Positions 1,623 through 21,700 are shown, counted from the first letter of the stretch. The stretch: 39,514 bases of DNA from Clostridia bacterium (GCA_017504545.1 JAFVRA010000084.1:1-39514); one strand, 5' to 3'. Notes: generated from the letters alone by a model not told the origin. A program made the numbers and translations.

Positions 1623-1701
1623 TAAAATTCTCGCAAAAAAATCGCCCTGTAAAAAATTTTTTTATCGGCTCTTACAATCATTGCAATAATATTCTCTGAT
1701 A

Positions 1702-1737
1702 CAAAAAAATATCCGCCGAAAATTCGGCGGATATTTT
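1702..1737. terminator. Bidirectional terminator downstream of serA
   Basis: Palindrome atatccgccgaa/ttcggcggatat (1709-1734) flanked by a 7-nt A-run and a T-run. It sits 18 nt beyond the serA stop. Confidence 0.7.
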
Positions 1738-1754
1738 GATTATCAGTAAGCTTT

Positions 1755-2915: not shown

Positions 2916-2937
2916 ATTGAATTCCTCGTTTAATTTT

Positions 2938-4029: not shown

Positions 4030-4220
4030 AACAATGAACCTCCGTAAAATGAAATTTAGATCTTTGCAACTTGCAAAAACTTGTTCTTATTATACTTTAT
4101 TGTTAAATGAATGTCAATAGGTTGTTAAAAAAATTTTTTAAGCTTTTTTATGATTTGTGTTTTTTGTGCAAAGAGGATATAAATATGTCCCCTTTTCTAC
4201 AACTATTTGCCGAATTCACA

Positions 4221-4249
4221 TTGACAAAATATTTTGGTTTTGGTATAAT
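4221..4249 (+). promoter_or_regulatory. Sigma-A type promoter for the 4322-7086 operon
   Basis: TTGACA (4221-4226), 17-nt spacer, TGgTATAAT (TATAAT at 4244-4249). It lies inside the longer 4157 ORF, which argues for the 4322 start. Confidence 0.65.
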
Positions 4250-4321
4250 AATAATGAATTTTTATCGATATTTGCTGAACTTATTGAAAAAATTACACTT
4301 ACATCCATACGAGGAAATTTT

Positions 4322-5707: not shown

Positions 5708-5724
5708 TATTCAAGGAGAATTTT

Positions 5725-7086
5725 ATGAAAAAACATATCGCTATTATTCTCACCTTGGCAACCCTTTTCGTCGTTTTTTCTTCTTGTGATCAATTTGTCG
5801 GCAAAGACGACATTTCTTCAAGCGCCACGGAAAACGACACGAAGGATACTTTTAAAACAAATACAACGATTGACGTAACCGATCAGATGATATCCTCGAT
5901 AAATATGTACGAGGCTATGCCTGAGGCACAGCTGGTTCAGGTCGGAGACACGCTTACGGACAAAGAGTATAATTACTTCTATTTTAAGCTCGGTACTGTG
6001 AAGAACGTTCCCATTCACTATGATACCGCGTACAACCACAACGGAATTGCGACCACGGAGTATGCTTGGACAAAAACCGCAGTATCCGAAAACATATATT
6101 CCGAGGTTATCTCCAATAGCATAAGTTCCGCTACGACCGCAGAATCAACGTTGTCCTTCTCCAACGAAACTTCCGCATCTCTGAACGCATCTTACGGTGG
6201 AATAGGCGCAAACGTGGGAATAAAAGCCTCCCAGAATCTCTCAACCTCTTTGGGAAGCACCACAAAAGTTTCTTATGAAAAAACCTTTAATCAATCGGTA
6301 AACAATACCATCAAAAACAGTCAGTCGCGCGTTGTTACTATCAGCAAGGATGCCCCTGTCGGATATTATCGATACGTGATTTTCGGCGATTTTGATATTT
6401 ACGTAATGCTGATGTGCAAAATATCCGATCAAAGCATTGATTATACTTACGTTTCCACCTTGAAAGAAGACAGCCTTTTCGACACCTTTACATACAGCAA
6501 AGAAAATGATTTTTCTGACAGTAATACAGACGAATTAAAGTTACAGCTGACGCAAGAAATGCTTAGCTCTCTTGCAATAGATTTCTTTGACTCCGATGTC
6601 AAAAACTATGTCAAGGATTATGTTTTTGCTTCAATGAGAGCCTTGGAAAAAGAGGGAAAATTCAAGGTTACATCCAAAGGATACTACGGCTTGGCTCAGA
6701 TAGAGCTGGCAGATGAGATGAATCTCTCCTCCCTGATCGAATATATGACCCCCGAATACACGTTCACATTTAAGGTCGCTGTAAACGCTGAGTCTCGAAA
6801 TGTTTTCGGGCACGAGGTCGAGGGTTATCGCGAGGTTCATCTTTACGATCGTCGTAACAGGTCGTTTGATCGAGAGATAAGCGCAGAGACTGCAAAAAAT
6901 GAATACGGTTGGCTGGGTGAGATGGTATGGGATGAAGACTCAAGTTTATTCGAGGATAGCTTTACTATCAGCGGAGACAAATGCAAGGACTACATGTACA
7001 TTTATTACGATGCTCACGGTAATGATGACAACACTTGGTATCTCAAATACATAAGCGTAGACGTTTCGGTAACAAAAGCAAATTAA
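5725..7086 (+). CDS. Hypothetical lipoprotein
   Basis: The ATG at 5725 lies 6 nt after an AAGGAGA RBS. The signal peptide MKKHIAIILTLATLFVVFSSC carries a lipobox Cys. The mature 430-aa protein is Ser/Thr/Asn-rich and matches no family I recognise. Its start is 18 nt after the stop of the upstream gene. Confidence 0.8.
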   Translation: MKKHIAIILTLATLFVVFSSCDQFVGKDDISSSATENDTKDTFKTNTTIDVTDQMISSINMYEAMPEAQLVQVGDTLTDKEYNYFYFKLGTVKNVPIHYDTAYNHNGIATTEYAWTKTAVSENIYSEVISNSISSATTAESTLSFSNETSASLNASYGGIGANVGIKASQNLSTSLGSTTKVSYEKTFNQSVNNTIKNSQSRVVTISKDAPVGYYRYVIFGDFDIYVMLMCKISDQSIDYTYVSTLKEDSLFDTFTYSKENDFSDSNTDELKLQLTQEMLSSLAIDFFDSDVKNYVKDYVFASMRALEKEGKFKVTSKGYYGLAQIELADEMNLSSLIEYMTPEYTFTFKVAVNAESRNVFGHEVEGYREVHLYDRRNRSFDREISAETAKNEYGWLGEMVWDEDSSLFEDSFTISGDKCKDYMYIYYDAHGNDDNTWYLKYISVDVSVTKAN

Positions 7087-7095
7087 ATATAAACA

Positions 7096-7138
7096 AAGAT
7101 CCGCGGACACGATGCGTGTCCGCGGATCTTGTTTTTTT
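7096..7138. terminator. Bidirectional rho-independent terminator
   Basis: 15-bp perfect stem aagatccgcggacac/gtgtccgcggatctt (7096-7110 / 7116-7130) with loop gatgc, followed by a T7 run. An A-rich stretch lies on the left. It sits between convergent genes. Confidence 0.85.
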
Positions 7139-7140
7139 AT

Positions 7141-7770
7141 TTATGCGTTTTCCTTTATCATTATAATATCCTTAGCGTAAGGAAGCTCGGATATCCAATC
7201 GCAGAGGGTGTGCCACTCGGCGAGCTTGTGTGTTCTTCTTGCATAGTAGATATTGATGAGATTCTCGTAGTTGAGAGTTACCGTTCTCATCTGATTGTAG
7301 CTTGAGGGAAGAAGCTGTATCATATTGTGCCAAGCCTGCTTATTGGTCTTATCCTCGCAGAACTTCACTCTTTCGCCCTCAAGATACGCGATGATCGCGT
7401 CGAGCGCCGCAAGTCCGCCCTCGTCGAGTCTGTCGCAGGAGAAGTCTGCTCTCTCAAAGGATTTAGCGTGTATCTTATGCATCGTGCTGCAGGAGTTTGC
7501 GACCGTGCCTACCTTGTATGTATCAAACTCCTTCCACCAATAAAGCGGAGCGGTAATATCTACCGACACGAAGATCTGGCGCAGGAATTTGCGGTGATCG
7601 CTTCCCGCCGAGGCAAGACGCTTTGCAAGTCCGAGATCGTTCTCGCCGAGGACGTAGTTTCCCTCCTCGTCGTAGGCGCTGTCCATTCTGTCCCAGCTGT
7701 TAAGAGGGTTTCTCGCGCCTCTTATAGCGTTTTCAAGGTTCATCACCGAGGTTCTCTCTATCTTGATCAT
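7141..7770 (-). CDS. ThyX-fold (flavin-dependent thymidylate synthase-like) protein, divergent and lacking the RHR motif
   Basis: The 209-aa product aligns by eye with ThyX along its length. AIRGARNPL corresponds to the ThyX N-terminal helix. VSVDITAPLYWWKEFDTYKVGTVANSCSTMH corresponds to the ThyX block F.F.I.G.SR....Q..RHR..S...S.RY. RRTHKLAEW corresponds to the R..SHAQ.E block. A GGAGGA RBS is present. Confidence 0.6.
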   Translation of the reverse strand: MIKIERTSVMNLENAIRGARNPLNSWDRMDSAYDEEGNYVLGENDLGLAKRLASAGSDHRKFLRQIFVSVDITAPLYWWKEFDTYKVGTVANSCSTMHKIHAKSFERADFSCDRLDEGGLAALDAIIAYLEGERVKFCEDKTNKQAWHNMIQLLPSSYNQMRTVTLNYENLINIYYARRTHKLAEWHTLCDWISELPYAKDIIMIKENA

Positions 7771-7947
7771 TCAAACTTCCTCCGTATTTTGCGCTAAATT
7801 TATCGCCAAATGCTTTTATATTAATAATATAACATATTTTTATATGAAAGTCAATCATATTTTTGGCTAAAAGTTGATTGACTTTTTTCCTAAACTGTGA
7901 TATTATTATAAGGGAATATTTTTTCACAGTTCACAGGAGAAACAATT

Positions 7948-9141
7948 ATGGAATACAATTTTTCAAACAAGCTTGCCGCTCTTAAGCCCTCGGCTATCCG
8001 TGAGATATTCAAGAGTCTTACAGATCCTACGATAATCTCGTTTGCCGCAGGTAACCCCTCCCCAGAGTCCTTCCCCGTTGAAGAGCTTAAGGCGCTTTCG
8101 GCTGAAATATTTGCAAATGAATCCACAACGGCGCTTCAGTACAGCATCACAGAAGGCTACGCTCCCTTGAGAGAAGCGATAGCCGCTCGTCAGAAGTCCC
8201 GTTTTGGCGAAAATATGGTCACAGACAGAGACACCACGCTCGTGGTAACGGGCGGTCAGCAGGGTATCGAGCTTTCCTGCAAGGCATTCTGCAACGAGGG
8301 CGACGCGGTTATCTGCGAGAACCCGAGCTTTATCGGTGCGCTCAACGCTTTCCGCTCCAACGGTGCTAAGACTATCGGCGTTGATATGGAGTCCGACGGC
8401 ATTTCGCTCTCCGCACTTGAGGAGACTCTCAAGAATACCCCCAACGCAAAGCTTCTTTACCTCATTCCCACCTTCCAGAACCCCACGGGAATTACTATGA
8501 GCCTTGAGAAGCGCCTCGGCGTTCTCGCTCTTGCCAAGAAGTACGGCGTTGTGATACTTGAGGACAACCCCTACGGCGAGCTTCGCTTCGCGGGCGACGA
8601 TCTCCCCACTCTCAAGAGCCTTGACACAGACGGAATAGTTATCTACTGCTCCTCCTTCTCGAAGATCCTCTCGGCAGGTATGCGCGTAGGCTTCGTAGTA
8701 GCACCCTCGGAGATATGCTCCAAGATGGTAGTTGCCAAGCAGGTTGAGGACGTTCACACCAACATCTTCTTCCAGATGCTCTGCTACAAGTATATGACTA
8801 CCTGCGATCTTGACGCTCACATCGCAAAGATCAACGCTCTCTACCGCCGCAAGTGCAATCTTATGCTTGATTGCATCGACAAATATATCCCCAAGGACAA
8901 GGTTGAATTCACACGCCCCGAGGGCGGTCTGTTCATCTGGGGAACCGTCAAGGATACGACCGACGCATCTAACGTTGTAAAGCTCGCTATTGAAAAGAAG
9001 GTTGCCGTAGTACCCGGAAGCGCATTCAACTGCGACACCGAGGCTCCCTCGCCTTCCTTCAGACTCAATTACTCTACCCCGTCCGACGAGCAGATAATTG
9101 AGGGTGTAAAGCGACTTGGCGAGGTCTTTGCCGCTCTTTAA
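7948..9141 (+). CDS. PLP-dependent aminotransferase, class I/II (2-aminoadipate/aromatic aminotransferase-like)
   Basis: 397 aa with the N-terminal motif KPSAIREI..., the FAAGNPSPESFP motif and the PLP-lysine context SFSKILSAGMRVGF. An AGGAGA RBS is present. Confidence 0.85.
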   Translation: MEYNFSNKLAALKPSAIREIFKSLTDPTIISFAAGNPSPESFPVEELKALSAEIFANESTTALQYSITEGYAPLREAIAARQKSRFGENMVTDRDTTLVVTGGQQGIELSCKAFCNEGDAVICENPSFIGALNAFRSNGAKTIGVDMESDGISLSALEETLKNTPNAKLLYLIPTFQNPTGITMSLEKRLGVLALAKKYGVVILEDNPYGELRFAGDDLPTLKSLDTDGIVIYCSSFSKILSAGMRVGFVVAPSEICSKMVVAKQVEDVHTNIFFQMLCYKYMTTCDLDAHIAKINALYRRKCNLMLDCIDKYIPKDKVEFTRPEGGLFIWGTVKDTTDASNVVKLAIEKKVAVVPGSAFNCDTEAPSPSFRLNYSTPSDEQIIEGVKRLGEVFAAL

Positions 9142-13459: not shown

Positions 13460-13488
13460 TTGCAAGCTTTAGAATTCTGTGCTATAAT
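13460..13488 (+). promoter_or_regulatory. Sigma-A type promoter for the beta-helix protein gene
   Basis: TTGCAA (13460-13465), 17-nt spacer, TGcTATAAT (TATAAT at 13483-13488). It lies ~50 nt upstream of the ATG at 13541. Confidence 0.65.
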
Positions 13489-13540
13489 AAATCGAGGCGT
13501 ATTCGCGTGCGCCTTATTCAGAATATTAAAGGCGGACGAT

Positions 13541-15178
13541 ATGACGACCTATTATATTGACCACAAAAACGGAAACGACGCGCTTGACGGACGCTCTCCC
13601 CAAAGCGCAAGAAAAAACTATACCGACCTCTCGCTAAAAAAAGGCGACGAGGTGCTTTTCAAGCGCGGTAGCTTCTATCGTGACAAGCTCCACGCGCTTC
13701 CCTACGTCTCCTACGGCGCTTACGGGGATGGCGAGGCTCCTACCTTCTGCGGCTCAACAGACGTCAGCAGAGAGGAAAATTGGGCGCTTACAGAGCGCGA
13801 GAACGTCTGGAAATGCAGGAAGCTGATTCCCGGAGACGTGGGAAATATGCTCCTTGGTGACGGTCTTTACGGCACGTTCCGTTGGGAGCTTGACGAGCTT
13901 GCCTCTGACGGCGACTTTTACGACGCGAGAAGCATCCTTGGCGACTGCTTCAAGCAGGGCAACGAGCCCTCGCTCTACCTCTACTCGCAAGTAAATCCTG
14001 CCGCAAAATACCCCCATATCGAGGCTATCTCCTACAACACTCGTCAGCTTGTCAAGCTTAGCGACGGTATGAGCTTTGACTCATTGCGCTTTATCAACAG
14101 CGGCGTTCACGGAATGGCGGGCAATGGAGATCACATCACGGTCAGAAATTGCAGCTTTGAGAATATCGGCGGATGTGCCTGGAGCCACGAGCTGAGAATA
14201 AGATTCGGAAACGGATTTGAGATCTGGGAGAGAGGCGACGATATACTTATAGAAAACTGCTCGTTTAAGAGCGTTTACGATTCCTGCATAACTCATCAAG
14301 GTCCGGGGGAAGATACGAAGCCTGCCGAGAGATTTATCTGCCGCGGATGCCACTTTGACACCTACGGAATGGCGGCGTTTGAATACAGAGACAAGCTACC
14401 TATCGACTCCGCGTTTATCGGCAACACCTGCACGGACGCAGGCTGCGGATTTGCGATGCTCGGTGAGGATCTGCCGCGAAGAAGCGAGATCTGGCCTCAG
14501 CCTATGGGACACCATATATTTATGTGGCGAATTGACCACGCTACAGACGGCGGCAGACTTGAGATACGCGACAACCACTTCGGCACGGCCCCCGTGGGTG
14601 CGGCGATATATTCCATAATCTCGCCCGAAGCAGAAGCGCAAGTGACACTTGAGAACAACCTCTACACCGAAAACGCCACGCTTCTCAACCGTTTTGGCGG
14701 CGAGAATTTCTGCGATCTTGACACCTACAAGGCAAGGAGCGGTCAGGACAAGAACAGCAGGTACATCAAGTCAAAGAAGAAGATCAAGGGACTCGTATCG
14801 ACGATAATTCTCGGTGTTTGTCTGCTTATTGCGCTATTTTTCACCTCAAGGCTTCTGTCGGTAGATCTGCAAGAGTCGCTCAAGCAGATGTCGCAGTCGG
14901 CAAGCAACTCCGCGGGAAGCCTTGAAAATGCGGGCGAGATGGAATTGGTCTATCTCCTTGCCGCAAGCATAGGCGTGATTGCAGTAACCATCGCGGCTTA
15001 TATTATCGCCATTATGACGCTCACCTCCTGCGCCGTTCCGCTTATTTTCTCAATAAGGAATATAAAGGCAGAAAACAAGGCAATAAAGATCATCAATATA
15101 ATATACACAGTTCTCTTTTCTTCGGGAGTTCTTCTCTCGTTGATAAAGATGCTGCTATTTTATCTCGGTATTGGATAA
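13541..15178 (+). CDS. Right-handed parallel beta-helix repeat protein with a C-terminal multi-pass membrane anchor
   Basis: The ATG at 13541 follows an AAAGGCGGA RBS. The N-terminus YYIDHKNGNDALDGRSPQSARK is typical of pectate-lyase-fold proteins. PbH1-like repeats are present (VRNCSFENIGG, IENCSFKSVYDSCITH, CRGCHFDTYG, IGNTCTDAGCG). The last ~130 aa hold 3-4 hydrophobic helices preceded by KSKKKIKG. Confidence 0.75.
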   Translation: MTTYYIDHKNGNDALDGRSPQSARKNYTDLSLKKGDEVLFKRGSFYRDKLHALPYVSYGAYGDGEAPTFCGSTDVSREENWALTERENVWKCRKLIPGDVGNMLLGDGLYGTFRWELDELASDGDFYDARSILGDCFKQGNEPSLYLYSQVNPAAKYPHIEAISYNTRQLVKLSDGMSFDSLRFINSGVHGMAGNGDHITVRNCSFENIGGCAWSHELRIRFGNGFEIWERGDDILIENCSFKSVYDSCITHQGPGEDTKPAERFICRGCHFDTYGMAAFEYRDKLPIDSAFIGNTCTDAGCGFAMLGEDLPRRSEIWPQPMGHHIFMWRIDHATDGGRLEIRDNHFGTAPVGAAIYSIISPEAEAQVTLENNLYTENATLLNRFGGENFCDLDTYKARSGQDKNSRYIKSKKKIKGLVSTIILGVCLLIALFFTSRLLSVDLQESLKQMSQSASNSAGSLENAGEMELVYLLAASIGVIAVTIAAYIIAIMTLTSCAVPLIFSIRNIKAENKAIKIINIIYTVLFSSGVLLSLIKMLLFYLGIG

Positions 15179-15222
15179 AAAAAGCTCGGAGCATTATGGT
15201 GCGTGTTCTTAAGGACAGTTTT
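15178..15222 (+). repeat. Left arm of a ~45-nt inverted repeat (partner at 17265-17307)
   Basis: The arm reads AAAAAAGCTCGGAGC - 9-11 variable nt - CGTGTTCTTAAGGACAGTTTT. The reverse complement of 17265-17307 matches the 15-nt and 21-nt blocks exactly. The arm starts at the stop codon of the upstream gene. Confidence 0.85.
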
Positions 15223-15249
15223 AAGAATACGTTACCTACCGACAGGAAA

Positions 15250-15285
15250 AGGACGAAGAATTGTTAAAATTCCTCGTCCTTTTTT
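15250..15285 (+). terminator. Rho-independent terminator
   Basis: 12-bp stem aggacgaagaat/attcctcgtcct (one A-C mismatch) with a 7-nt loop and a T6 run. An A-run lies on the left. Confidence 0.65.
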
Positions 15286-15325
15286 CTTGACAAGCACTGC
15301 ATTTGTGGACACAAATGTCTTTATG

Positions 15326-15354
15326 TAGACTAATTCACAAATTTATGATATAAT
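15326..15354 (+). promoter_or_regulatory. Candidate promoter of the sigma-factor gene
   Basis: TAGACT (4/6 match to the -35 consensus), 17-nt spacer, TGaTATAAT (TATAAT at 15349-15354). It lies ~80 nt upstream of the ATG at 15437. Confidence 0.5.
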
Positions 15355-15436
15355 ATTTGCGAGAAACATTAACCAAATCATTTTTCTTTCACTATTAATG
15401 CAGAAGCTTCTAAAATGGCGGAAAGGAGGTACGTAG

Positions 15437-16993
15437 ATGACCTCAATCGAATTGAACGAAAAGATAACGGAAGTATCAAAAACAATCTTCTCCTACTGTA
15501 TGGCTAAAACACCCACACGAGAAGAAGCCGAAGACTTATCACAAGAAATTCTGTATGAGTTGATAAAGTCGGCTGAAAATATTCGCGATGACAAGGCATT
15601 TTACGCTTTCATGTGGGGAGTTGCAGGAAACGTTTATAAGCAGTGGTATCGAAAAAAGTTAAAAAATAACACCTGCGAATTGACGGAAGATATTCCCTCG
15701 GACAATGAGTTCGCAGAAGATGATAATAGCGATATATATCTGCTTCGCCGTGAGCTTACTTTGCTATCCGAGAAATATCGAAAAGCAACGATTATGTATT
15801 ACATTGACGAACGTTCTTGCTCTGAAATATCATCTGCGCTTGCCATTTCCGAAAGCATGGTAAAATACCTGCTGTTCAAATCACGAAAAATATTGAAAGA
15901 AGGAATGAGTATGGAAAGAAATCTTGGAGAACTCAGCTATAATCCTAAAACATTGATCCCGATGTATAACGGTGAGGGGCCAAACCATTTTTGGAATTTT
16001 ATGCAAAGCAAAATCAAACAAAATATTGTAAGTGCTTGTTATAACGATGCACTTACGGTTCAGCAAATCAGCCTTGAGACCGGCATTCCGCTCCCGTATC
16101 TTGACAATGAAATCAAGGAACTTGAAAACAGAAAAATTATTATCAAAGATGGTAATTATTATAAAGCAAATGTAATTATTATTACAGAGGAATGTACCGA
16201 CGAAATTGATCGTGCTGTTGCAAAATATCACGACCAAATTGCCGATAAAATTGAATTATTTATCAAAGAAAAGATGCAGTGGTATAAGGAAATCGGTTTT
16301 ACCGGTTGTGATTTTTCAGAGAACAGCTTGCGTTGGCAAATGTCTGCAATTCTGTTTAGAATTATTTTTGGCACATATTCATGGCCGAATGCAGAAGTGC
16401 CTAAAACCGCATGGGGTGAGCGGGCTTTTCTTTGGTGTCTTGAAAAGATGAATACGAATCATACCTTTAGTTTTTGCGATCAAGACAGTAAAAAACAAGA
16501 CCGAATGTATTTCTTTGATTATTGGAAAAATGGCAATGGAAAAGGAAATCATCACGACTTTTATGGAAATGATCGTTATATCAACATCTTTTGTGATATC
16601 TGTCGATGTAATAAGACGACATTTAGCGAATACGATCTTGAAGCAGTTGCTGAAATGATCAAAAAAGGATATATAATCAAAGAAAACGATGAATATCTGA
16701 CTTCCGTTGTAACTTATACAGTAGAGCAACATAAAACGATTCTTTGTGTGATGGAAGATTTTATATCAGCTGAACTTGCATCAATTATTAAAGAAATGGA
16801 TAAGACAGCAGCACAAATTTTAGGTTCACACACACCAAAACATTTGCAAGACCAAGTTAAAGGTATTGCCTCTATGGATAGGTTTGGTAATGCAGTTTGT
16901 ATTCCCGCAATAATTCTTATTGAGAGACAATTCTTGAGTACCGCTTGGCATCCTCTTGAAATGCCTACGACTTATGTTGTTTTGAATAAGTAA
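15437..16993 (+). CDS. Sigma-70 family (ECF-like) RNA polymerase sigma factor with a ~350-aa C-terminal extension
   Basis: Region 2-like sequence: EEAEDLSQEILYELIKS...FYAFMWGVAGNVYKQWYRKK. Region 4-like HTH: LSEKYRKATIMYYIDERSCSEISSALAISESMVKYLLFKSRKILKEG. A soluble extension follows, with winged-helix-like stretches and no TM helix. An AAGGAGG RBS is present. The gene is markedly AT-rich. Confidence 0.8.
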   Translation: MTSIELNEKITEVSKTIFSYCMAKTPTREEAEDLSQEILYELIKSAENIRDDKAFYAFMWGVAGNVYKQWYRKKLKNNTCELTEDIPSDNEFAEDDNSDIYLLRRELTLLSEKYRKATIMYYIDERSCSEISSALAISESMVKYLLFKSRKILKEGMSMERNLGELSYNPKTLIPMYNGEGPNHFWNFMQSKIKQNIVSACYNDALTVQQISLETGIPLPYLDNEIKELENRKIIIKDGNYYKANVIIITEECTDEIDRAVAKYHDQIADKIELFIKEKMQWYKEIGFTGCDFSENSLRWQMSAILFRIIFGTYSWPNAEVPKTAWGERAFLWCLEKMNTNHTFSFCDQDSKKQDRMYFFDYWKNGNGKGNHHDFYGNDRYINIFCDICRCNKTTFSEYDLEAVAEMIKKGYIIKENDEYLTSVVTYTVEQHKTILCVMEDFISAELASIIKEMDKTAAQILGSHTPKHLQDQVKGIASMDRFGNAVCIPAIILIERQFLSTAWHPLEMPTTYVVLNK

Positions 16994-16999
16994 AAATTC

Positions 17000-17046
17000 A
17001 CCGCCGAGAGCAACCGTTTGATCACTCTCGGCGGTATGTTATTTTA
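17000..17046 (+). terminator. Terminator of the sigma-factor gene
   Basis: 11-bp stem accgccgagag/ctctcggcggt (17000-17010 / 17025-17035) with a 14-nt loop, followed by a T-rich tail. Confidence 0.55.
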
Positions 17047-17101
17047 TGTTGCACAACCACCTCTGGTGGTGAGTAAGTGCGCACTTGCAGATAAACAAAA
17101 A

Positions 17102-17225
17102 GCCTCCCTTGTGTAAAGGGAGGTGGCACGGCTTGCCGTGACGGAGGGATTGTAAAAGGCGAAAATTTATCGTTAAACAATCCCTCAGCCGCCTTAGGCG
17201 TCAGCTCCCTTTACACAAGGGAGCC
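17102..17225. repeat. Structured palindromic intergenic element (two ~50-nt modular arms in inverted orientation, 23-nt spacer)
   Basis: Left arm is 17102-17153 and right arm is 17177-17225. The outer blocks ctcccttgtgtaaagggag and ggagggattgt/acaatccctc are reverse complements. The centre of each arm is a different small GC hairpin (cacgg-cttg-ccgtg versus gccgcc-ttag-gcgtc). On the minus strand the element is followed by TTTTTGTTT. Confidence 0.8.
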
Positions 17226-17264
17226 TATAGCGGTGTTCGCTCGTCTACATACTATTCCATTTAT

Positions 17265-17307
17265 AAAACTGTCCTTAAGAACACGGCGCATAGCTCCGAG
17301 CTTTTTT
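17265..17307 (-). repeat. Right arm of the ~45-nt inverted repeat (partner at 15178-15222)
   Basis: The reverse complement reads AAAAAAGCTCGGAGC-tatgcgc-CGTGTTCTTAAGGACAGTTTT. It begins 8 nt after the rpsR stop codon. Confidence 0.85.
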
Positions 17308-17314
17308 GTTTTGC

Positions 17315-17572
17315 TTAGTCTGTTACGTAAGGAAGAAGAGCAACGTGACGAGCTCTCTTGATCGCGGTGTTGAGCTCTCTCTGGTGCTTTGCGCAAGTAC
17401 CGGAAATTCTTCTGGGAAGGATCTTGCCGCGCTCGCTGATGAACTTGCGGAGCTTTGCGGAATCCTTATAATCGATGAAATCTACCTTGTCTGCACAGAA
17501 AATGCAAACCTTCTTTCTTCTGCGCACCATGGGACGGGGCGCACGAACTACGTTCTCGGTTTTATTATCCAT
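17315..17572 (-). CDS. rpsR: 30S ribosomal protein S18
   Basis: 85 aa with the typical bS18 sequence ([34 protein letters not shown]). It is the last gene of rpsF-ssb-rpsR. Confidence 0.95.
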
Positions 17573-17618
17573 GATTGAAAACCTCCTATAAATTTTGTTG
17601 ATGTGTTGACGCGCCTAC

Positions 17619-18080
17619 TCAGAAGGGCAGATCGTCGTCAGTGTTGTGATCCTCAAAGTTGGGCGCGGAGCCGGGGTTTGAGGAGAACGAAGGAGCCTGC
17701 GTGTAGGCGTCCGGAGTATAGGACGACTGCGACGTGCTCTCGCTGCGGGATTCAACGAACATTGCTTCGTCAGCTACTACCTCGGTAGCATAACGTCTCT
17801 GTCCCTGCTGATCCTGCCAGCTTCTTGTCTGGATGCTTCCGCTTACGCAGATAGCCGAGCCTTTTCTGAAGTACTTGGAAATGAATTCCGCCGTATTTCT
17901 CCATGCGACAACGTTAATGAAGTCTGCCTGTCTTTCGCCCTGATCGCTGTTCTTAGAAACGTAGCTGCGATTTACGGCGATTGTGAAGCTGAGGACCGAC
18001 ACGCCTGAGGGTGTCTGCTTCAGCTCGGGATCAGCGGTCATTCTGCCTGCCAGTACTACCTTGTTAAGATTAAGAGACAT
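17619..18080 (-). CDS. ssb: Single-stranded DNA-binding protein
   Basis: 153 aa with an OB-fold N-terminus (LNKVVLAGRMTADPELK), a Gly/Ser/Pro-rich linker and the canonical acidic tail DDDLPF. Confidence 0.95.
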   Translation of the reverse strand: MSLNLNKVVLAGRMTADPELKQTPSGVSVLSFTIAVNRSYVSKNSDQGERQADFINVVAWRNTAEFISKYFRKGSAICVSGSIQTRSWQDQQGQRRYATEVVADEAMFVESRSESTSQSSYTPDAYTQAPSFSSNPGSAPNFEDHNTDDDLPF

Positions 18081-18104
18081 CAGAAATTCCTCCCTGTTTG
18101 CCGA

Positions 18105-18521
18105 TTACTCAGCGTCGGTAGCTTCGGTTGTCTCTGCAGCAGCTACTTCCTCAGTAGCAGCCTCTTCAGCAACTGCCTCTACAGCAGGAGCCTCAGCAAG
18201 CTTTGCAGCCTTCTTCTCAGCAGCATCGTATTCCAGCTTGATCGTCATAGAACGCATAACAGCCTCGTCGATGTTGCAAAGACGCTCGAACTCAGCGGGG
18301 AAATTACCCTCTGCCTTGTAAGTAGCGACAACGTAGTAACCCTCGGGCATATCGTTGATAGGATATGCAAGACGGCGCTTACCCCACTTTGCCACGTCAA
18401 CGACCTCAGCATTTGCTTCGATCAAGGACAGGAACTTGTTCACAGTTGCTTCGGTAGCTTCTTCGCCAACGGTAACATCAACAATGAACAGGCTTTCGTA
18501 AGAATTGATTACCTTTTCCAT
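18105..18521 (-). CDS. rpsF: 30S ribosomal protein S6 with an Ala/Glu-rich C-terminal extension
   Basis: The N-terminal ~95 aa are typical bS6 (YESLFIVD..., WGKRRLAYPI). About 40 extra residues follow, rich in A/E/T (AAEKKAAKLAEAPAVEAVAEEAATEEVAAAETTEATDAE). Confidence 0.9.
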   Translation of the reverse strand: MEKVINSYESLFIVDVTVGEEATEATVNKFLSLIEANAEVVDVAKWGKRRLAYPINDMPEGYYVVATYKAEGNFPAEFERLCNIDEAVMRSMTIKLEYDAAEKKAAKLAEAPAVEAVAEEAATEEVAAAETTEATDAE

Positions 18522-18618
18522 TTTTTACACCTCCCTATGGACTTAAGACCGCAAGCATCGAACAAAAAATTTACCTGCGGTAAGGAGACGGACAATCAAA
18601 TGTCCGTACCGAATAAAG

Positions 18619-18647
18619 ATTATATCATATTTTAGTCTGTCTGTCAA
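18619..18647 (-). promoter_or_regulatory. Consensus sigma-A promoter of the rpsF-ssb-rpsR operon
   Basis: On the minus strand: TTGACA (18642-18647), 17-nt spacer, TGaTATAAT (TATAAT at 18619-18624). This leaves a ~90-nt structured leader before the rpsF ATG. Confidence 0.8.
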
Positions 18648-18702
18648 GCCTTTTTTTGAGATTTTTTCGGAATTAATGATTTTCTTCTATATAATATAAA
18701 TA

Positions 18703-18730
18703 TCCCTCGGCAAGTAAGCTTGCCGAGGGA
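18703..18730 (-). terminator. Terminator of the giant envelope-protein gene
   Basis: 12-bp perfect stem tccctcggcaag/cttgccgaggga with loop taag, 24 nt after the stop. A T/A-rich tail follows on the minus strand. Confidence 0.7.
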
Positions 18731-18753
18731 TAGGGTGTTTATAAAATTTTGTA

Positions 18754-21700
18754 TCAGCCGCGCTTTTCTGCGCTTCCGCCTGCCTTCTCTATCTTCTCTC
18801 TTGCCGCCGCGCTGAATTTATCCGCGCTTACCTCAAGAGGCTTATTAAGCTCTCCTCTGCCAAGGACTGCCAATCTGCCTGCGTTCTTGGGTATCATCTG
18901 CTTTTCCTTGAGAGAATCGATATTTACGGCGTCTCCCGCCTCAAATTGCTTGTCGAGCAGACCTACGTTGATCTCTGCCCTTCTCGCTCTCTTGCACTTT
19001 ACTTTCTTAGGCTTTTCAAGCACTATCGGAGCAGGAATGATCTCGGGCTCAGGTTCGGGCTCGGGTTCAGGCTCGGGCTCGGATTCGGGCTCAGGCTCGG
19101 GCTCGGGTTCAGGCTCGGGCTCGGGCTCGGGTTCAGGCTCGGGCTCAGGCTCACCCTCAGGTTCGGGCGCAGGGATCTCTTCAAGCTCAAGCTCGGGTGT
19201 GAAATCGTACGCGCTCTCAGCAACAGGCTCTGCCTCTTCCTTGGCAGGCTTATTTCTGAGCAGCTCGATCACGAGATAAGCAATATAAACAGCCATCGCA
19301 ACGTCTGCGATACCGACCATTACTGTCATCGTCCACATAGACACGGGCATTGCGCCGAGTGCCGCAAGTGCGGTCGCACGCTTTCTGCGAACAAGCACGA
19401 ATATCGTAATAGCCTCAAGTATGCCTATCACGCAAAGCGCGATAAGTATCGGGCGAAGCATATCAACGCAAGCGCCGTCCTCCTGAGAGAGCGCATCGTT
19501 GTTGAGATCGGCAAATCCGTCAAGGCAGTTGTCTCTGATAGACTTGACCTCACCCACTGCCATCGCACCCGCGATGTCTGTCTCGGCAAGAAGAAGCTCT
19601 GCCGCAAGCTTGTCCTTGATGCTCTTTCTGCTTGCATCGTCAAGATATACGAAGGCGTCGACCGTATCGTCTATCTTTTTCTTCTCACTCTGTATCTCTG
19701 CCACAGCCGCTTCCTTGGCGTTGTAGAGATCCATAGTAACGGCCTTATCGGAAACGCCCTCAAGCACGCTCATTCCGTCCTCAGTCGCCTTTGCGATCTC
19801 CTCGCTGCTGAGAGCTTCGTTTATCTTGCCCTTAGCCGCCTCTACTGCCGCCTCAGCCTCTGATCGAAGCGCTGCTCTTTCTTCATCAGTAAGATATTCA
19901 AGTGCATCTATCGCCGCAAATATCTCCTCTTTTTTGGTTTCAAGAGAATCCTCGGCAACGTTACCTTGCTCTTTTCTTGCCTCGCTGTCACCAAGCTCGA
20001 CCTTTGACTTCTTGCCGTCGAGCACCTTTTCACCGTCTCTTACTACGGTGGCTATATCGCTACTGTTCTTTACACCGTCAAGTTCCTTAGCGATAGTTTC
20101 AAGAGAAGAATCAGCCTCATTCTTCAAGGCTTCCTTAGCCGCGTCGTCAAGGTAGGTAGCGTTCTTTATCGCCTCAAGAACCTCAGCGTGCTTCTTCTCA
20201 AGCGCCTTTCTTGCCTCCTCGATCTGCTCTGCCTTTGCAACGTCGTCAGCAGCCTTTGCTTCGGTAAGGATACCGTTTACCAGGCTTGTACCGCCGTCGC
20301 TCTCCGCCTTTGCGGCGTCGGCAGTCTTTGCCGCGTCTATCTTTTCCTGAGTTGCCTTACGCACCTCCTCGATCTTATCGATAGCCGCCTGCTTTTCCTC
20401 TTCGCCAAGGTATCCGAGATTGCCTATCTCCTCATTCGCGCCATTTGCCGCGCCGTGTGCGGCATCTGCGGCAGTTGCCTTGGCGGTGTTAAGATCCAGT
20501 CGGTCAATAAAGTCTTCTTTAAGCTTGTCTATGTCTGTGCCCGTTGCAGTGGTAAGGGCCTCGATCACGTCGGCCAATGCGTTTTTCATCTCTTCACGGT
20601 AAGGAGCTCTCTGCGGGTTGGTAAGATTTTTGAGAGAGTCAACGGCATCCAGCGCCTTTACACTCTCGTTTTTTAGATCCTTCATTACCGCTACCTTTTT
20701 TTCAGCCTCGTCATTTATCTTTCCGAGTGCCTTTTCAAATCTCTCAAGTGCGGCAGTCTTGCCCGTCTCGTCAGAAGCAGCTCTGATATCCTTAACGCTC
20801 TCGTCAAGAAGCGCGTCAAGCTTATCGCTAAGCACCTGCTTCATCTCGTCGGTGAGCTGGGTGTAAGCATTTATTTTATCCTTCTGTGCTTTTGCGTCAT
20901 CTATAGTGTCCTGTACGCAGAATTCCTTTTCCAAGTCAAATATAGCCTTATCGGCGATCGCCCCGATCTTTGCAGGATCGGTAGCCGCCGCTATATCCTC
21001 GTGTGCCTTTTTGACGATAGCGTCTATCTCGCTCTTGACTCCGGGAGTCGCATTTTCTTCCCTCTCGGCAAGCTTTACGTTTATACAGGAGATCGCTTCC
21101 TTGCGATCAAGTGCCGTGATAGCGTCACTTGCGATCTTTTCATCGTCCTCCGCTCCGGCTACGATAGCCTTGCAAGCATCGGTAGCGATATTCTCAAGCT
21201 CTTTCTTATCAATATTAGAGAAATCCTTGTAGATCTCCTCTGCAGCTATCGCCTCGTATCTGTCAAGCACCGCATCCGCAAGTCTTGCTCTGTTCACGAT
21301 ATCTGCGGCATCCTCAATAAGCGTGCCGATATTCTCATATCTGAGATCGTCTATCTTATCCTTGAGCTCGTCGGCGTAAGCGTCTCTGAGCTCGCCGTCA
21401 CCGAGTAAGCCGTCTATCTCCTGATTTGCGACCTCGCCGTAAAGCTCGGTGAGCTTCTGAGCGGCGAGAATGATGTTAGCATCAGCCTTTGCCTTACTAT
21501 TGAGCGCATTGAGGGCGTTTATGGCGTCCTCGATAGGCTTCTTATCGGCAATAGTGATCTCTGCGGGAGTCTTACCGAGAATGTCGGCGTAGATAGCCTT
21601 GAACTCCTCTATCTCAAGCTCTGCCATCGCTTCCTCAAAGCGTCCGTCAAGAGTTTCGGGAGTTGCTTTTTCAATAAGATCGTCGCCCTTATCATGAAGC

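What the first reader, a model, noticed from the sequence alone, without database searches (positions are those of the whole stretch)
15178..17307. AT-rich sigma-factor cassette sitting between the two arms of a split bidirectional terminator
Directly visible:
- The sequence starting at the stop codon of the beta-helix gene (15178-15222) is AAAAAAGCTCGGAGC..CGTGTTCTTAAGGACAGTTTT. It recurs as an exact reverse complement (15-nt and 21-nt blocks) at 17265-17307, 8 nt after the stop of the convergent rpsR.
- Put together, the two arms have the form A6-stem ... stem-T6. That is the form of a long bidirectional intrinsic terminator between convergent genes.
- The ~2.04 kb between the arms is conspicuously more AT-rich than the flanks. 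It carries its own terminator (15250-15285), a promoter, one gene (the ECF-like sigma factor), another terminator and a palindromic repeat element.
- Neither arm alone forms a convincing hairpin.

Inference: a foreign cassette was inserted into the loop of a terminator hairpin, or the cassette is bounded by inverted repeats that allow inversion or excision. No recombinase, transposase or group II intron ORF is present. The insertion mechanism is therefore unclear, which is the interesting part. Each arm also contains small palindromes (GCTCnGAGC and GTTCTTAAGGAC) that could be protein-binding sites.
Basis: partly seen in the sequence, partly recalled or inferred. Interest (0 to 1): 0.62.

Follow-up and report, generated by a model that had tools for sequence, protein, structure and literature searches.

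The report
Recombinase-less gene cassette splitting a terminator
A 2.1-kb piece of foreign DNA carrying a sigma-factor-like gene sits exactly in the tip of the terminator hairpin shared by two host genes. It is a stripped-down member of a large family of gut-Clostridia mobile elements whose complete members carry a transposon-type serine recombinase and almost always land in terminator hairpins.

Summary
Each "arm" has two parts.

- **Outer part (A-run + GCTCGGAGC + AT).** This is one half of the host's bidirectional terminator. Three related contigs carry the uninterrupted hairpin (AAAAAGCTCGGAGC-ATTC-GCTCCGAGCTTTTTT) between the same two genes. One of them is 99% identical to the window on the rpsR side.
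- **Inner 26 nt (…GTTCTTAAGGACAGTTTT).** This is the terminal inverted repeat of a mobile element (15197-17290, 2,094 bp). The element is flanked by TA on both sides.

The repeat is a family signature. There are about 12 copies in this genome, and it occurs in 16 of 19 congeneric genomes and in many ruminant-gut Clostridia MAGs.
- In 31 of 45 convergent pairs the two arms share a locus-specific A-run plus stem.
- In 26 of 30 pairs the same dinucleotide flanks both ends.
- Cargo is diverse and no cassette examined encodes a recombinase.

The same ends terminate 10-kb mobilizable elements that encode a DUF4368-type large serine recombinase (46 of 73 loci). One such element sits in this very terminator in a 95%-identical relative.

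Best reading: a non-autonomous cassette moved in trans by that recombinase, which targets terminator hairpins. No cognate recombinase was found in this 82%-complete MAG, and no excision product was seen.

The parts
13460..15178 (+). Host gene on the left: beta-helix surface protein with an AT-rich membrane-tail 3' end. Its stop codon TAA is at 15176-15178.
   Evidence: ORF list. Weak Pfam Beta_helix hit. It aligns at 95% with L307 and 84-91% with the empty-site contigs, so it is host DNA.
15177..15194 (+). Left half of the host bidirectional terminator: A-tract 15177-15183, stem GCTCGGAGC 15184-15192, loop bases AT 15193-15194.
   Evidence: It is contiguous with 17293-17307 in the empty-site alleles L368, L380 and L387. 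The rebuilt hairpin folds at -24.6 kcal/mol on both strands.
15195..15196 (.). TA dinucleotide at the left junction: inferred crossover or duplicated dinucleotide.
   Evidence: The same TA lies at 17291-17292. In a fixed register, 26 of 30 family pairs have the same dinucleotide on both sides. The filled/empty pair L182/L184 fits a TA duplication. The empty alleles of this site read TC here.
15197..15222 (+). Left terminal inverted repeat of the element: TGGTGCGTGTTCTT + AAGGACAGTTTT.
   Evidence: The family-wide core YCTWAAGGACAGTTTT has 10 exact copies in the genome (about 12 with looser matching). It occurs in 16 of 19 congeners, with 0 hits for the reversed control. The same core ends the recombinase-bearing elements.
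15223..15288 (+). Left chassis: an AAGAATACG block (as at the recombinase-proximal end of full-length elements), the conserved block ACCTACCGACA (15234-15244), then a bidirectional terminator hairpin at 15247-15283 with its T-run.
   Evidence: Fold -21 kcal/mol, z -4.3. Blocks are shared with C22, L182 and L014. There is 83% similarity to the recombinase-proximal end of L309.
15287..15436 (+). Cassette promoter region: TTGACA at 15287-15292, operator-like palindrome CATTTGTG-GA-CACAAATG at 15300-15317, -35 TAGACT at 15326-15331, extended -10 TGATATAAT ending at 15354, 5' UTR and ribosome-binding site GGAAAGGAGG.
   Evidence: Promoter scan 10/12 with TG. The module recurs at 94-97% in C22, C20 and C38. 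It is 30-100 times deeper than the unique sequence in gut metagenomes.
15437..16993 (+). Cargo gene, 518 aa: an ECF-type sigma domain (aa 7-155) fused to a roughly 360-aa C-terminal region with no family match.
   Evidence: Pfam Sigma70_r2 and r4_2. TIGR02937 scores 62.5 bits against a cut-off of 42.9. The only PDB matches are to ECF sigma factors, at aa 16-167. GC is about 35%. Low-level pieces appear in 4 metatranscriptomes.
16999..17036 (+). Terminator hairpin behind the cargo gene.
   Evidence: 17-bp stem. Fold -20.5 kcal/mol, z -5.1.
17101..17226 (.). Nested palindromic repeat of about 125 nt. It is a gene-less copy of the arms that flank a DUF559 nuclease gene in other cassettes.
   Evidence: Fold -71.8 kcal/mol, z -7.9. 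There are more than 15 copies in the genome. The DUF559 gene lies between such arms in C20 and L172. Depth is 1,670-8,655 against about 12 for the unique sequence.
17227..17264 (-). Conserved sub-terminal block of the right end.
   Evidence: Nearly identical in the LivF-site cassette L182.
17265..17290 (-). Right terminal inverted repeat. Read inward on the minus strand it is TGCGCCGTGTTCTT + AAGGACAGTTTT.
17291..17292 (.). TA dinucleotide at the right junction.
17293..17307 (+). Right half of the host terminator: stem GCTCCGAGC 17293-17301 and T-tract 17302-17307.
   Evidence: Homology with L042 and with the empty-site contigs starts or ends exactly here.
17315..17572 (-). Host gene on the right: rpsR (ribosomal protein S18), last gene of rpsF-ssb-rpsR.
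   Evidence: Pfam Ribosomal_S18, 9.8e-28. In four congeners rpsR is followed by a plain A-tract/hairpin/T-tract terminator without the repeat.

Best explanation
**What it is.** Positions 15197-17290 are a 2,094-bp non-autonomous mobile cassette. It integrated into the 4-nt loop of the bidirectional intrinsic terminator shared by the beta-helix gene and rpsR. That pushed the two terminator halves (A7-GCTCGGAGC-AT and GCTCCGAGC-T6) 2.1 kb apart.

**Layout.** The cassette has 26-nt terminal inverted repeats and is flanked by TA on each side. Between the repeats lies a standard chassis:
- a terminator
- a promoter with an operator-like palindrome
- the cargo ORF
- a second terminator
- a nested palindromic element

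The cargo here is an ECF-sigma-like fusion protein. There is no recombinase.

**How it moves (inferred).** The repeats are the half-sites of a DUF4368-type (TnpX/TndX-like) large serine recombinase. That enzyme is encoded by roughly 10-kb integrative mobilizable elements with the same ends. The inferred steps are:
1. The recombinase, supplied in trans, excises the cassette as a circle. The joined ends form a roughly 46-bp imperfect palindrome around TA, which acts like an attP site.
2. The recombinase recombines this site with a terminator by a 2-bp staggered cut in the loop.
3. The terminator is itself a palindrome, with an A-tract about 12 nt from the centre and a mirrored T-tract, so it acts like an attB site.

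**Shown versus inferred.**
- Shown: insertion in the terminator loop, presence/absence polymorphism, shared ends with recombinase-bearing elements, and the 2-bp flanking repeat.
- Inferred: trans-mobilisation, the circular intermediate, and how the terminator is recognised.
For: **This site**
- Empty-site alleles at this exact site: L368, L380 (99.2% identical on the rpsR side) and L387. They read AAAAAGCTCGGAGC-ATTC/GTTC-GCTCCGAGCTTTTTT between the same genes and fold at about -24.5 kcal/mol.
- A second, independent filled/empty pair lies at the LivF-type ABC gene. The empty form is AACCGCGC-ATATCC-GCGCGGTT (L183-L187). The filled form has a cassette flanked by TA in that loop (L182, L188-L190).

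**Family-wide pattern**
- 31 of 45 convergent repeat pairs share at least 10 nt of locus-specific A-run plus stem, against 3.6% of mismatched pairs.
- 187 of 221 distinct arms have an A-run of 4 or more. In 160 of those it ends 10-14 nt from the repeat edge.
- With a fixed register, 26 of 30 pairs carry the same dinucleotide in direct orientation at both junctions (AA 18, AT 4, TA 4). Chance expectation is about 21%.
- Cargo is diverse, including NUDIX, DUF559, Cro/C1 HTH, Ltp lipoprotein, BspA-LRR, a P-loop protein, a metallo-beta-lactamase fold and sigma-like proteins. None is a recombinase.

**Link to the recombinase**
- In 46 of 73 loci encoding relatives of a 565-aa recombinase (Resolvase + Recombinase + Zn_ribbon_recom + DUF4368), the same repeat core lies 57-112 nt after the stop codon. 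It faces outward and is followed by a different A-run plus stem each time.
- The other close relatives of the recombinase (77-84% identical) have a variant core. The repeat's outer half changes with the recombinase clade.
- L309 is a complete 10,364-bp element whose two arms share AAAAAGCCCCGTGAC.
- L307 is 95% identical to the window over 1.9 kb. It has such a recombinase element at the very same junction (…TA-AT-GCTCCGAGC) of the very same terminator.

**Published parallels**
- TnpX-type elements have a 2-bp target. Tn6104 is flanked by a 2-bp direct repeat that is also present in the circle and in the empty site (PMC3158075).
- DUF4368 marks a 'multi-targeting' recombinase clade with a TT core and A/T-enriched flanks (PMC10083194).
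Against: - No cognate recombinase is in this assembly. The only large serine recombinase (C123) is 43% identical and has different ends. The MAG is 82% complete, so absence is weak evidence.
- No circle junction or excision product was observed. Logan contigs of four gut metagenomes showed no empty-site joint at this locus, but such contigs drop rare variants.
- The empty alleles read ATTC or GTTC, not the ATTA predicted from the filled allele. One base of the inferred crossover dinucleotide therefore differs.
- Similarity between the window's ends and the sampled recombinase-proximal ends is limited to about 22-35 nt, and the outer 14 nt differ.
- A 2-bp flanking repeat is also what a TA-duplicating DDE transposase would leave.
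- MAGs usually lose insertion sequences, so a DDE partner cannot be excluded from absence alone.
Confidence: 0.75

Rival explanations
1. The cassette is a mobile insertion cassette or MITE-with-cargo of a DDE transposon that duplicates TA (IS630/Tc1-like or the IS5/IS427 group). An insertion sequence with the same terminal repeats, lost from these MAGs, would mobilise it.
For: The element has terminal inverted repeats, a 2-bp flanking repeat that is TA in this genome's copies, and no transposase inside. It belongs to a many-copy non-autonomous family. MAG assemblies often lack insertion sequences.
Against: - No DDE_3 (IS630-type) gene occurs in any of 21 related genomes, while 5 of 14 control genomes gave hits.
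- No transposase was found in any repeat-bounded unit sampled.
- The commonest flanking dinucleotide is AA, not TA, and it sets the polarity of two different end types. That fits a crossover dinucleotide better than a TA duplication.
- The only enzyme gene found repeatedly at a fixed distance from the repeat is a serine recombinase.
Confidence: 0.1
2. The inverted repeats are sites for an invertase encoded elsewhere. The 2-kb segment is then a phase-variable invertible element (an inverton), not an insertion.
For: The segment is bounded by inverted repeats that recur genome-wide, as with the Mpi-type global invertase regulons of gut bacteria. A TA core is palindromic and would permit inversion.
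Against: - Empty-site alleles show insertion.
- All five same-species contigs that span the cassette carry it in one orientation.
- No strand-switch joints appear in metagenome contigs.
- The cassette has its own promoter and terminators on both sides, so flipping it would change nothing obvious.
Confidence: 0.03
3. The 45-nt motif is a 3'-UTR RNA element or unusual terminator that belongs to each flanking host gene. The pair would be two independent copies at the ends of convergent genes, with an unrelated island between them.
For: In all 8 copies checked for it in this genome, the motif lies 22-41 nt after the stop codon of a same-strand gene. The other four are likewise at the 3' end of a gene, one of them a tRNA.
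Against: - It does not explain why the two arms of a pair share a locus-specific stem.
- Sequence identity between strains breaks exactly at the outer edge of the repeat (L042, L043).
- The genes have plain terminators in the empty alleles.
- There is no Rfam match. Pairing inside the repeat is no better than its column composition predicts, 70% against 66%.
Confidence: 0.02
4. The cassettes no longer transpose. They spread and swap cargo only by homologous recombination through their conserved chassis and flanks after DNA uptake. The recombinase association would then be historical.
For: - The same chassis carries different cargo at the same site (L191 against L182, with the switch point at the ribosome-binding site).
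- The same cassette occurs with a different left flank (L043).
- No cognate recombinase is in this MAG.
Against: The first insertion into each of dozens of different terminator loops, each with a 2-bp repeat, needs a site-directed enzyme. This reading complements the main explanation rather than replacing it.
Confidence: 0.1

Closest known systems
Tn4451/Tn4453 (TnpX), Tn5397 (TndX) and Tn6104: transposons and integrative mobilizable elements of Clostridia moved by large serine recombinases
   Same: The full-length relatives encode a recombinase with Resolvase + Recombinase + Zn-ribbon + DUF4368 domains, plus a relaxase and a MobC/NikA-like protein. The elements have imperfect inverted ends and a 2-bp direct repeat at both junctions (PMC3158075). 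Tn6104 also carries sigma-factor-like cargo.
   Different: - The window element has no recombinase or mobilisation genes.
- The target is the loop of an intrinsic terminator rather than a GA site that resembles the element joint.
- In the genus, about 95 repeat ends were counted against only two recombinase-bearing copies.
- I found no description of such cassettes, or of terminator targeting, in the papers I could search.
'Multi-targeting' DUF4368 large serine recombinases (for example Cp36; Durrant et al. 2022, PMC10083194)
   Same: Same domain signature. Many different integration sites per recombinase cluster. A conserved AA/TT core dinucleotide with A- and T-enriched flanks (compared).
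   Different: That work describes the targets as short AT-rich motifs. The words 'terminator' and 'palindrom…' do not occur in the paper. Here the target has a defined architecture: A-tract, 9-11-bp dyad stem, short loop, T-tract.
Mobile insertion cassettes (MIC231 of the Bacillus cereus group) and bacterial MITEs such as Correia, RUP and ERIC (from my own knowledge)
   Same: Non-autonomous units bounded by the terminal repeats of an autonomous element. Some carry passenger genes, and all are mobilised in trans.
   Different: Those depend on DDE transposases and leave the target duplications typical of them. Here the only associated enzyme is a serine recombinase, and no DDE partner was found.
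Integron gene cassettes, and SCC / pseudo-SCC elements of staphylococci (from my own knowledge)
   Same: Small units of one to a few genes with very diverse cargo and no recombinase of their own, moved by a site-specific recombinase encoded elsewhere. Pseudo-SCC elements lack ccr and depend on the CcrAB serine recombinases.
   Different: Integron cassettes are promoterless, end in attC, and stack in one array beside a tyrosine recombinase gene. SCC elements use a single site in rlmH. The cassettes here carry their own promoter and terminators and are scattered over many terminators.
Class C group II introns, and IS1397/ISKpn1 (from my own knowledge)
   Same: These mobile elements choose hairpin-forming intergenic sites. 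Group IIC introns insert just after intrinsic terminators. IS1397 inserts in the loop of REP palindromes.
   Different: Different machinery (retrohoming ribozyme plus reverse transcriptase; an IS3-family DDE transposase). No group II intron RNA was found here by Rfam, and there is no reverse transcriptase.

Membership tests
Bidirectional intrinsic (rho-independent) terminator: the host target | A-tract, GC-rich stem, short loop and T-tract, contiguous at the 3' ends of convergent genes | tested here: met
   The rebuilt site is A7-GCTCGGAGC-ATTA-GCTCCGAGC-T6 and folds at -24.6 kcal/mol on both strands. The natural contiguous versions L368, L380 and L387 have an ATTC or GTTC loop and fold at -24.4 to -24.9 kcal/mol.
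TnpX/TndX-type large-serine-recombinase transposon or integrative mobilizable element | Encodes a large serine recombinase (Resolvase + Recombinase + Zn ribbon, usually DUF4368) | tested here: not met
   The only ORF in the window cassette is the sigma-like gene. Full-length elements with the same ends do encode the recombinase. The window element can therefore be only a non-autonomous derivative.
TnpX/TndX-type large-serine-recombinase transposon or integrative mobilizable element | The same 2-bp sequence in direct orientation at both junctions (the crossover dinucleotide) | tested here: met
   TA at 15195-15196 and at 17291-17292. 26 of 30 family pairs have matching dinucleotides in a fixed register, against about 21% by chance. 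Caveat: the empty alleles of this site read TC at that position.
TnpX/TndX-type large-serine-recombinase transposon or integrative mobilizable element | Ends shared with a recombinase-bearing element, with the repeat at a fixed distance from the recombinase gene | tested here: met
   46 of 73 recombinase loci have the CTGTCCTTWAG core 57-112 nt after the stop codon. The repeat variant tracks the recombinase clade. L307 carries such an element in the same terminator.
TnpX/TndX-type large-serine-recombinase transposon or integrative mobilizable element | Excision as a circle, leaving an intact target | not testable with these tools
   Only assembled contigs of public runs were available, and no circle or empty joint was seen in 4 runs. 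Empty alleles do exist in other samples.
MITE or mobile insertion cassette of a DDE transposon | An autonomous insertion sequence with the same terminal repeats that encodes a DDE transposase | tested here: not met
   No DDE_3 gene in 21 genomes. No transposase in any sampled repeat-bounded unit. Other DDE families were not searched, and MAGs under-represent insertion sequences.
Integron gene cassette | Promoterless ORF plus an attC site, arrayed beside intI/attI | tested here: not met
   The cassette has its own promoter and two terminators and inverted terminal repeats instead of one attC. It sits singly in a terminator, and copies are dispersed.
Inverton (invertible DNA segment) | Both orientations present in populations | tested here: not met
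   One orientation in all five spanning contigs (L034, L039, L040, L041, L043). No strand-switch joints.
REPtron / TIRtron (elements associated with RAYT or TIRYT Y1 transposases) | A Y1 (HUH) transposase gene flanked by the repeats | tested here: not met
   Three RAYT-like genes exist in the genome (C78, C130, C49), but none is flanked by the repeat. None occurs in any repeat-bearing locus.
ECF sigma factor (the cargo protein) | Sigma-70 regions 2 and 4 without region 3, about 160-200 aa | tested here: inconclusive
   Regions 2 and 4 are present (aa 13-154; TIGR02937 above cut-off). The protein is 518 aa with an unassigned 360-aa C-terminal extension. No specific ECF subfamily reaches its cut-off.

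The most novel reading that the evidence does not exclude
A clade of DUF4368 large serine recombinases in gut and rumen Clostridia recognises intrinsic terminators as such. The cue would be their dyad geometry (A-tract about 12 nt from the centre, any complementary stem, short A/T loop, T-tract), possibly as extruded hairpins, rather than a fixed sequence. This would drive a dispersed, integron-like gene-cassette system.
- Small 'expression-vector' cassettes (own promoter, swappable ORF, insulating terminators) far outnumber the recombinase-bearing elements. In this genus about 95 repeat ends were counted against only two recombinase copies.
- The cassettes park where they do not disrupt genes.
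- They exchange cargo between species in the gut.
Probability: 0.45. Interest if true: 0.85.

Novelty: new variant of a known kind. Interest (0 to 1): 0.7.

Why it matters
**Gene flow in gut Clostridia.** If the reading is right, it explains a very abundant class of small AT-rich islets in uncultured gut and rumen Clostridia. The chassis modules are tens to hundreds of times deeper than the host genome in four gut metagenomes. It would also identify a route by which single accessory genes (regulators, surface proteins, nucleases, enzymes) move between species without plasmids or phages.

**Recombinase biology.** It gives a concrete, testable natural target for the 'multi-targeting' DUF4368 serine recombinases now being developed as genome-engineering tools. 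That target is a terminator hairpin, a site where an insertion harms no gene and is insulated from read-through. It also shows that serine recombinases, like DDE transposases, can support large families of non-autonomous cassettes.

**Annotation.** Split terminators with these repeats mark the exact cassette borders, so cassettes can be delimited from sequence alone.

Tried and rejected
- **Structured RNA or 3'-UTR element.** Rfam with permissive thresholds over 14000-19000 gave only chance-level hits. The apparent covariation inside the repeat (TAGAG/CTCTA against TAGGG/CCCTA) is no better than column composition predicts, 70% paired against 66% expected. Dropped.
- **IS630/Tc1-type TA-duplicating transposase.** No DDE_3 gene in 21 genomes.
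Three RAYT-like genes are present, but they are never next to the repeat.
- **DUF559 nuclease as the mover.** It is the commonest cargo (14 distinct sequences), but it sits inside its own palindromic arms, nested in the cassettes, and most cassettes lack it. The literature gave nothing on it as a mobility enzyme. I treat it as a separate nested selfish element.
- **Xer/dif-type or integron-type sites.** No 11-6-11 dyad is conserved beyond this one copy, and there is no attC architecture (reading).
- **Carriage on plasmids or phages.** No plasmid hit, and only two weak 47-nt phage-contig hits.
- **Empty site by exact-protein look-ups.** Look-ups at rpsR, the beta-helix gene and six other flanking genes gave an empty allele only at the LivF-type gene. 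The empty allele of the window's own site came from a pattern scan.
- **Reads.** Only assembled contigs were served. No empty or circle joint was seen at this locus. Metatranscriptome contigs are too sparse to map transcript ends.
- **Seven full-text literature searches** (on DUF559, as above). None turned up a description of terminator-loop-targeting serine-recombinase elements or their cassettes. Subscription-only papers are not covered.

Full report
**1. The observation**

- The repeat finder reports an exact 15-nt inverted repeat (15178-15192 / 17293-17307). It also reports a 34-nt repeat at 85% (15195-15228 / 17259-17292).
- BLAST joins these as 89% over 46 nt with one 2-nt indel.
- The left arm begins in the stop codon of the beta-helix ORF (13460-15178). 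The right arm ends 7 nt from the stop of rpsR (17315-17572, minus strand), the last gene of rpsF-ssb-rpsR.
- GC is 34-40% between the arms, against 50-55% in the flanks and 49.2% for the 1.79-Mb genome.

Between the arms lie five features:
- a strong bidirectional hairpin (15247-15283, -21 kcal/mol)
- a sigma-70-type promoter (extended -10 ending at 15354)
- one ORF of 518 aa with Sigma70_r2 and r4_2 domains (15437-16993)
- a second terminator (16999-17036)
- a 125-nt palindromic element (17101-17226)

**2. Each arm is two things joined**

The inner part, [GC]TCT[TA]AAGGACAGTTTT, is not unique.
- It has 10 exact copies and about 12 by profile search in this genome.
- Each copy checked lies 22-41 nt after the stop codon of a same-strand gene. 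One copy lies directly after a tRNA gene.
- Most unpaired copies lie within about 1.5 kb of a contig end, with the element interior running off the contig. Repeated sequence inside the elements therefore breaks the assembly.
- The 16-mer occurs in 16 of 19 genomes of the genus (0-12 copies each). It is absent from 11 of 12 other families of the order. The reversed control never matches.
- A scan of one genome per species finds it in many ruminant and other animal-gut MAGs labelled Oscillospiraceae, Eubacteriales, Clostridia or Acutalibacteraceae.

Copies recur as convergent pairs 0.3-10 kb apart and never as close divergent pairs.

The outer part (A-run plus about 9-11 nt) differs from locus to locus but is the same in the two arms of a pair.
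- 31 of 45 pairs share at least 10 nt in register, against 3.6% of mismatched pairs.
- Examples are AAAAAAAGAGCTGAC in L016, AAAAAAGAAGAACCACC in L017 and AAAAAGCCCCGTGAC in L309.

Read on one strand, a pair is A-run, stem X, repeat, cargo, repeat', X', T-run. That is a terminator hairpin split at its tip.

Over 221 distinct arms, 187 have an A-run of 4 or more. In 160 of these it ends 10-14 nt (mode 12) from the repeat edge.

**3. Empty sites**

A pattern scan for the two host halves joined by a short loop found three contigs in which the beta-helix gene end and rpsR are separated only by the intact hairpin.

| Contig | Identity to the window | Loop |
|---|---|---|
| L368 | 88% (beta-helix side), 91% (rpsR side) | ATTC |
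| L380 | 84% (beta-helix side), 99.2% over 1.1 kb (rpsR side) | ATTC |
| L387 | 90-91% (beta-helix side), 73% (rpsR side) | GTTC |

- The hairpin reads AAAAAGCTCGGAGC-loop-GCTCCGAGCTTTTTT and folds at about -24.5 kcal/mol.
- The site I had rebuilt from the window (loop ATTA, -24.6 kcal/mol on both strands) differs by one base.

A second, independent filled/empty pair lies after a LivF-type ABC gene.
- Five contigs have the plain terminator AACCGCGC-ATATCC-GCGCGGTT or its ATCT-loop variant.
- Four have a cassette in that loop: …GCGCA-TA-[GGGTCG…GCGCA]-TA-TCCGCG….

In four congeners rpsR is followed by an ordinary A-tract/hairpin/T-tract terminator without the repeat.

Strain comparison also shows sequence identity breaking exactly at the outer edge of the repeat.
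- L042 diverges immediately after GCTCGGAGC.
- L043 has the same cassette and rpsR flank but a different left gene and stem (ACACCGTGC).

**4. What the cassettes carry**

Cargo between the paired repeats is diverse:
- NUDIX hydrolases
- DUF559 nucleases
- a Cro/C1 HTH protein
- an Ltp-type lipoprotein
- a BspA-type LRR protein
- a P-loop protein
- a metallo-beta-lactamase-fold protein
- XRE-type regulators
- several sigma-like proteins (paralogues in C22/C72, L034 and L153)

None is a recombinase or transposase.

The non-coding chassis is shared between cassettes.
- The left module (repeat, ACCTACCGACA, terminator, promoter with the palindrome CATTTGTG-GA-CACAAATG) recurs at 94-97% in C22, C20 and C38.
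- The right module (terminator, palindromic element, sub-terminal block, repeat) recurs in C72, C31, C17 and L182.
- At the LivF site, L191 and L182 have the same left module and 5' UTR but different ORFs from the ribosome-binding site onward. Cargo is therefore exchanged within a constant frame.
- In four gut metagenomes the chassis modules are 30 to 700 times deeper than the unique parts of the window.

**5. The enzyme**

Several candidates were tested.
- *IS630-type DDE genes.* These are absent from 21 related genomes.
- *RAYT-like Y1 genes.* Three exist in this genome, but they are never next to the repeat.
Their number per genome does not track repeat number. However, two loci placed a recombinase gene beside a repeat (G010:C360 and G003:C58).

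In both loci a 565-aa recombinase (Resolvase + Recombinase + Zn_ribbon_recom + DUF4368) ends about 60 nt from an outward-facing repeat. A host A-run plus stem follows the repeat. Upstream lie a ParB-like gene, a MobA/VirD2 relaxase and a NikA/MobC-like gene. Together these make an integrative mobilizable element.

Searching one genome per species with this recombinase returned 80 loci.
- In 46 of the 73 examined, the core CTGTCCTTWAG lies 57-112 nt after the stop codon.
- The remaining close relatives (77-84% identical) have a variant core (GGAAGGACAGTTTT).
- Every locus has a different A-run plus stem.
- The outer half of the repeat changes with the recombinase clade.
- L309 is a complete 10,364-bp element whose two arms share AAAAAGCCCCGTGAC.
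- L307 aligns with the window at 95% over 1.9 kb of the beta-helix gene. It carries such a recombinase element at the very same junction of the very same terminator (…GAGGC-TA-AT-GCTCCGAGC, against the window's …CACCA-TA-AT-GCTCCGAGC).

**6. Junction chemistry**

I fixed the repeat edge at 14 nt before AAGG and allowed no free offset.
- 26 of 30 pairs carry the same dinucleotide in direct orientation on both sides: AA in 18, AT in 4 and TA in 4. About 21% would match by chance.
- With the non-palindromic AA core, the two ends are of two types. TT-AGAGCGTCACTCTA-AAGG is the recombinase-proximal end. AA-TGNNNNCGTACTCTT-AAGG is the distal end. The core therefore sets polarity.
- After removing the element and one dinucleotide, the predicted loops are mostly 2-6 nt (for example GAAA, TTTT, TATT, ATTA).

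A 2-bp repeat at both junctions is what serine recombinases leave.
- TnpX has a 2-bp target. Tn6104 is flanked by a 2-bp direct repeat that is also found in its circle and in its empty site (PMC3158075).
- DUF4368 marks the 'multi-targeting' recombinase clade. One member there has a TT core with A- and T-enriched flanks (PMC10083194).

In the window the joined ends would form a roughly 46-bp imperfect palindrome around TA, with the outer 14 nt of the two half-sites matching at 11 of 14 (sequence). The terminator is a roughly 36-bp perfect palindrome. These are the usual sizes and symmetry of attP and attB sites, as I know them from the large-serine-recombinase literature.

One discrepancy remains. 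The empty alleles read TC where the filled alleles (the window and L307) read TA. Either the progenitor lineage had ATTA, or a mismatched core was repaired after integration. I cannot tell which.

**7. Conclusion and limits**

*Shown:*
- a foreign, AT-rich, self-contained cassette sits in the loop of the beta-helix/rpsR terminator
- the site is polymorphic within the species (empty, sigma cassette, other content)
- the cassette's ends are those of a large family
- full-length members encode a TnpX/TndX-type serine recombinase
- a 2-bp repeat flanks the elements

*Inferred:*
- the recombinase moves the cassettes in trans through a circular intermediate
- it recognises terminators through their A-tract/dyad/T-tract geometry

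*Against:*
- this 82%-complete MAG has only a 43%-identical recombinase with other ends
- no circle or excision product was seen
- end similarity to the sampled recombinase elements is limited to about 22-35 nt
- a DDE partner cannot be excluded from MAGs

The cargo is an ECF-type sigma domain (TIGR02937 at 62.5 bits) fused to a 360-aa region with no family or solved relative. Metatranscriptome contigs hold low-depth pieces of it at 98-100% identity. That is weak evidence of transcription.

**8. Novelty**

Serine-recombinase transposons and non-autonomous cassettes are each known kinds. Three things are not described in anything I could search, though subscription journals are not covered:
- the combination of the two
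- the terminator-loop target
- the standard expression chassis

Earlier notes of this scan report the same phenomenon in other genomes. I used them as leads. I tested the serine-recombinase and RAYT proposals here.

Noticed in passing
window 17101-17226; also G000 C20:1-1215, C78:21547-21665, C70:29869-29995; L014, L016, L172: The 125-nt palindromic element is a gene-less form of two roughly 50-nt double-hairpin arms. In other cassettes these arms enclose a 122-aa DUF559 (Vsr-like nuclease fold) gene that is about 88% conserved across species. It looks like a separate selfish element nested in the cassettes. In gut metagenomes and metatranscriptomes it is up to about 700 times deeper than the host's unique sequence.
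   Followed up: partly
G000 C123:1194-2708 and the 400 nt after it: The genome's only large serine recombinase is 43% identical to the family recombinase. It is followed by a different end motif (ACTTCGTTATGGGGC…, like the CTTCCTTATGTGGCTG ends of the 55-60% clade) and then GGGCGGCGCTTTTTTT. That may be another split terminator, which would make this a second recombinase family with the same target habit.
   Followed up: no
L042 (same-species contig), just after rpsR: After the host half AAAAAAGCTCGGAGC the sequence continues with GAAAGGGAGATGTTCTTAGCGGAG…, another terminator and a different convergent gene. This is neither the cassette nor the empty hairpin. It may be a decayed end or a third kind of occupant of the site.
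   Followed up: no
L043 and L034 (same-species contigs): L043 has the same sigma cassette and rpsR flank but a different left gene and stem (ACACCGTGC). L034 has a 547-aa sigma-like paralogue with a 97%-identical right chassis and different stems on both sides. Recombination between cassettes seems to rearrange the chromosome.
   Followed up: partly
L191 against L182 (LivF-type ABC gene terminator): Both have the same left end, promoter and 5' UTR, but different ORFs from the ribosome-binding site onward (metallo-beta-lactamase fold against a P-loop protein). Cargo is swapped within a constant expression frame.
   Followed up: partly
window 15300-15317; also C22, C20, C56: The palindrome CATTTGTG-GA-CACAAATG sits between a TTGACA box and the -10 of the cassette promoter. 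It is shared by several cassettes with different cargo, which suggests one repressor controlling many cassettes.
   Followed up: no
G000 C78:3901-4236, C130:8191-8718, C49:17475-18026: Three RAYT-like (Y1/HUH) genes of 171-183 aa are conserved in congeners. Two are preceded by the hairpin CGGCAGAGG…CCTCTGCCG and then ATTTGTGTTATAATG. In metagenome contigs a similar promoter string abuts copies of the palindromic element.
   Followed up: partly
G000 C56:192-225: One copy of the terminal repeat lies directly behind a tRNA gene (…GGTTCGAGTC…CCAGCTCCA). The family therefore also uses the terminators of tRNA genes.
   Followed up: no
window 14773-15195 compared with L380 and L368: The 3' end of the beta-helix surface-protein gene is only 84-88% identical between strains whose rpsR side is 91-99% identical. 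This is a fast-evolving or recombining surface-protein tail next to the insertion hot spot.
   Followed up: no
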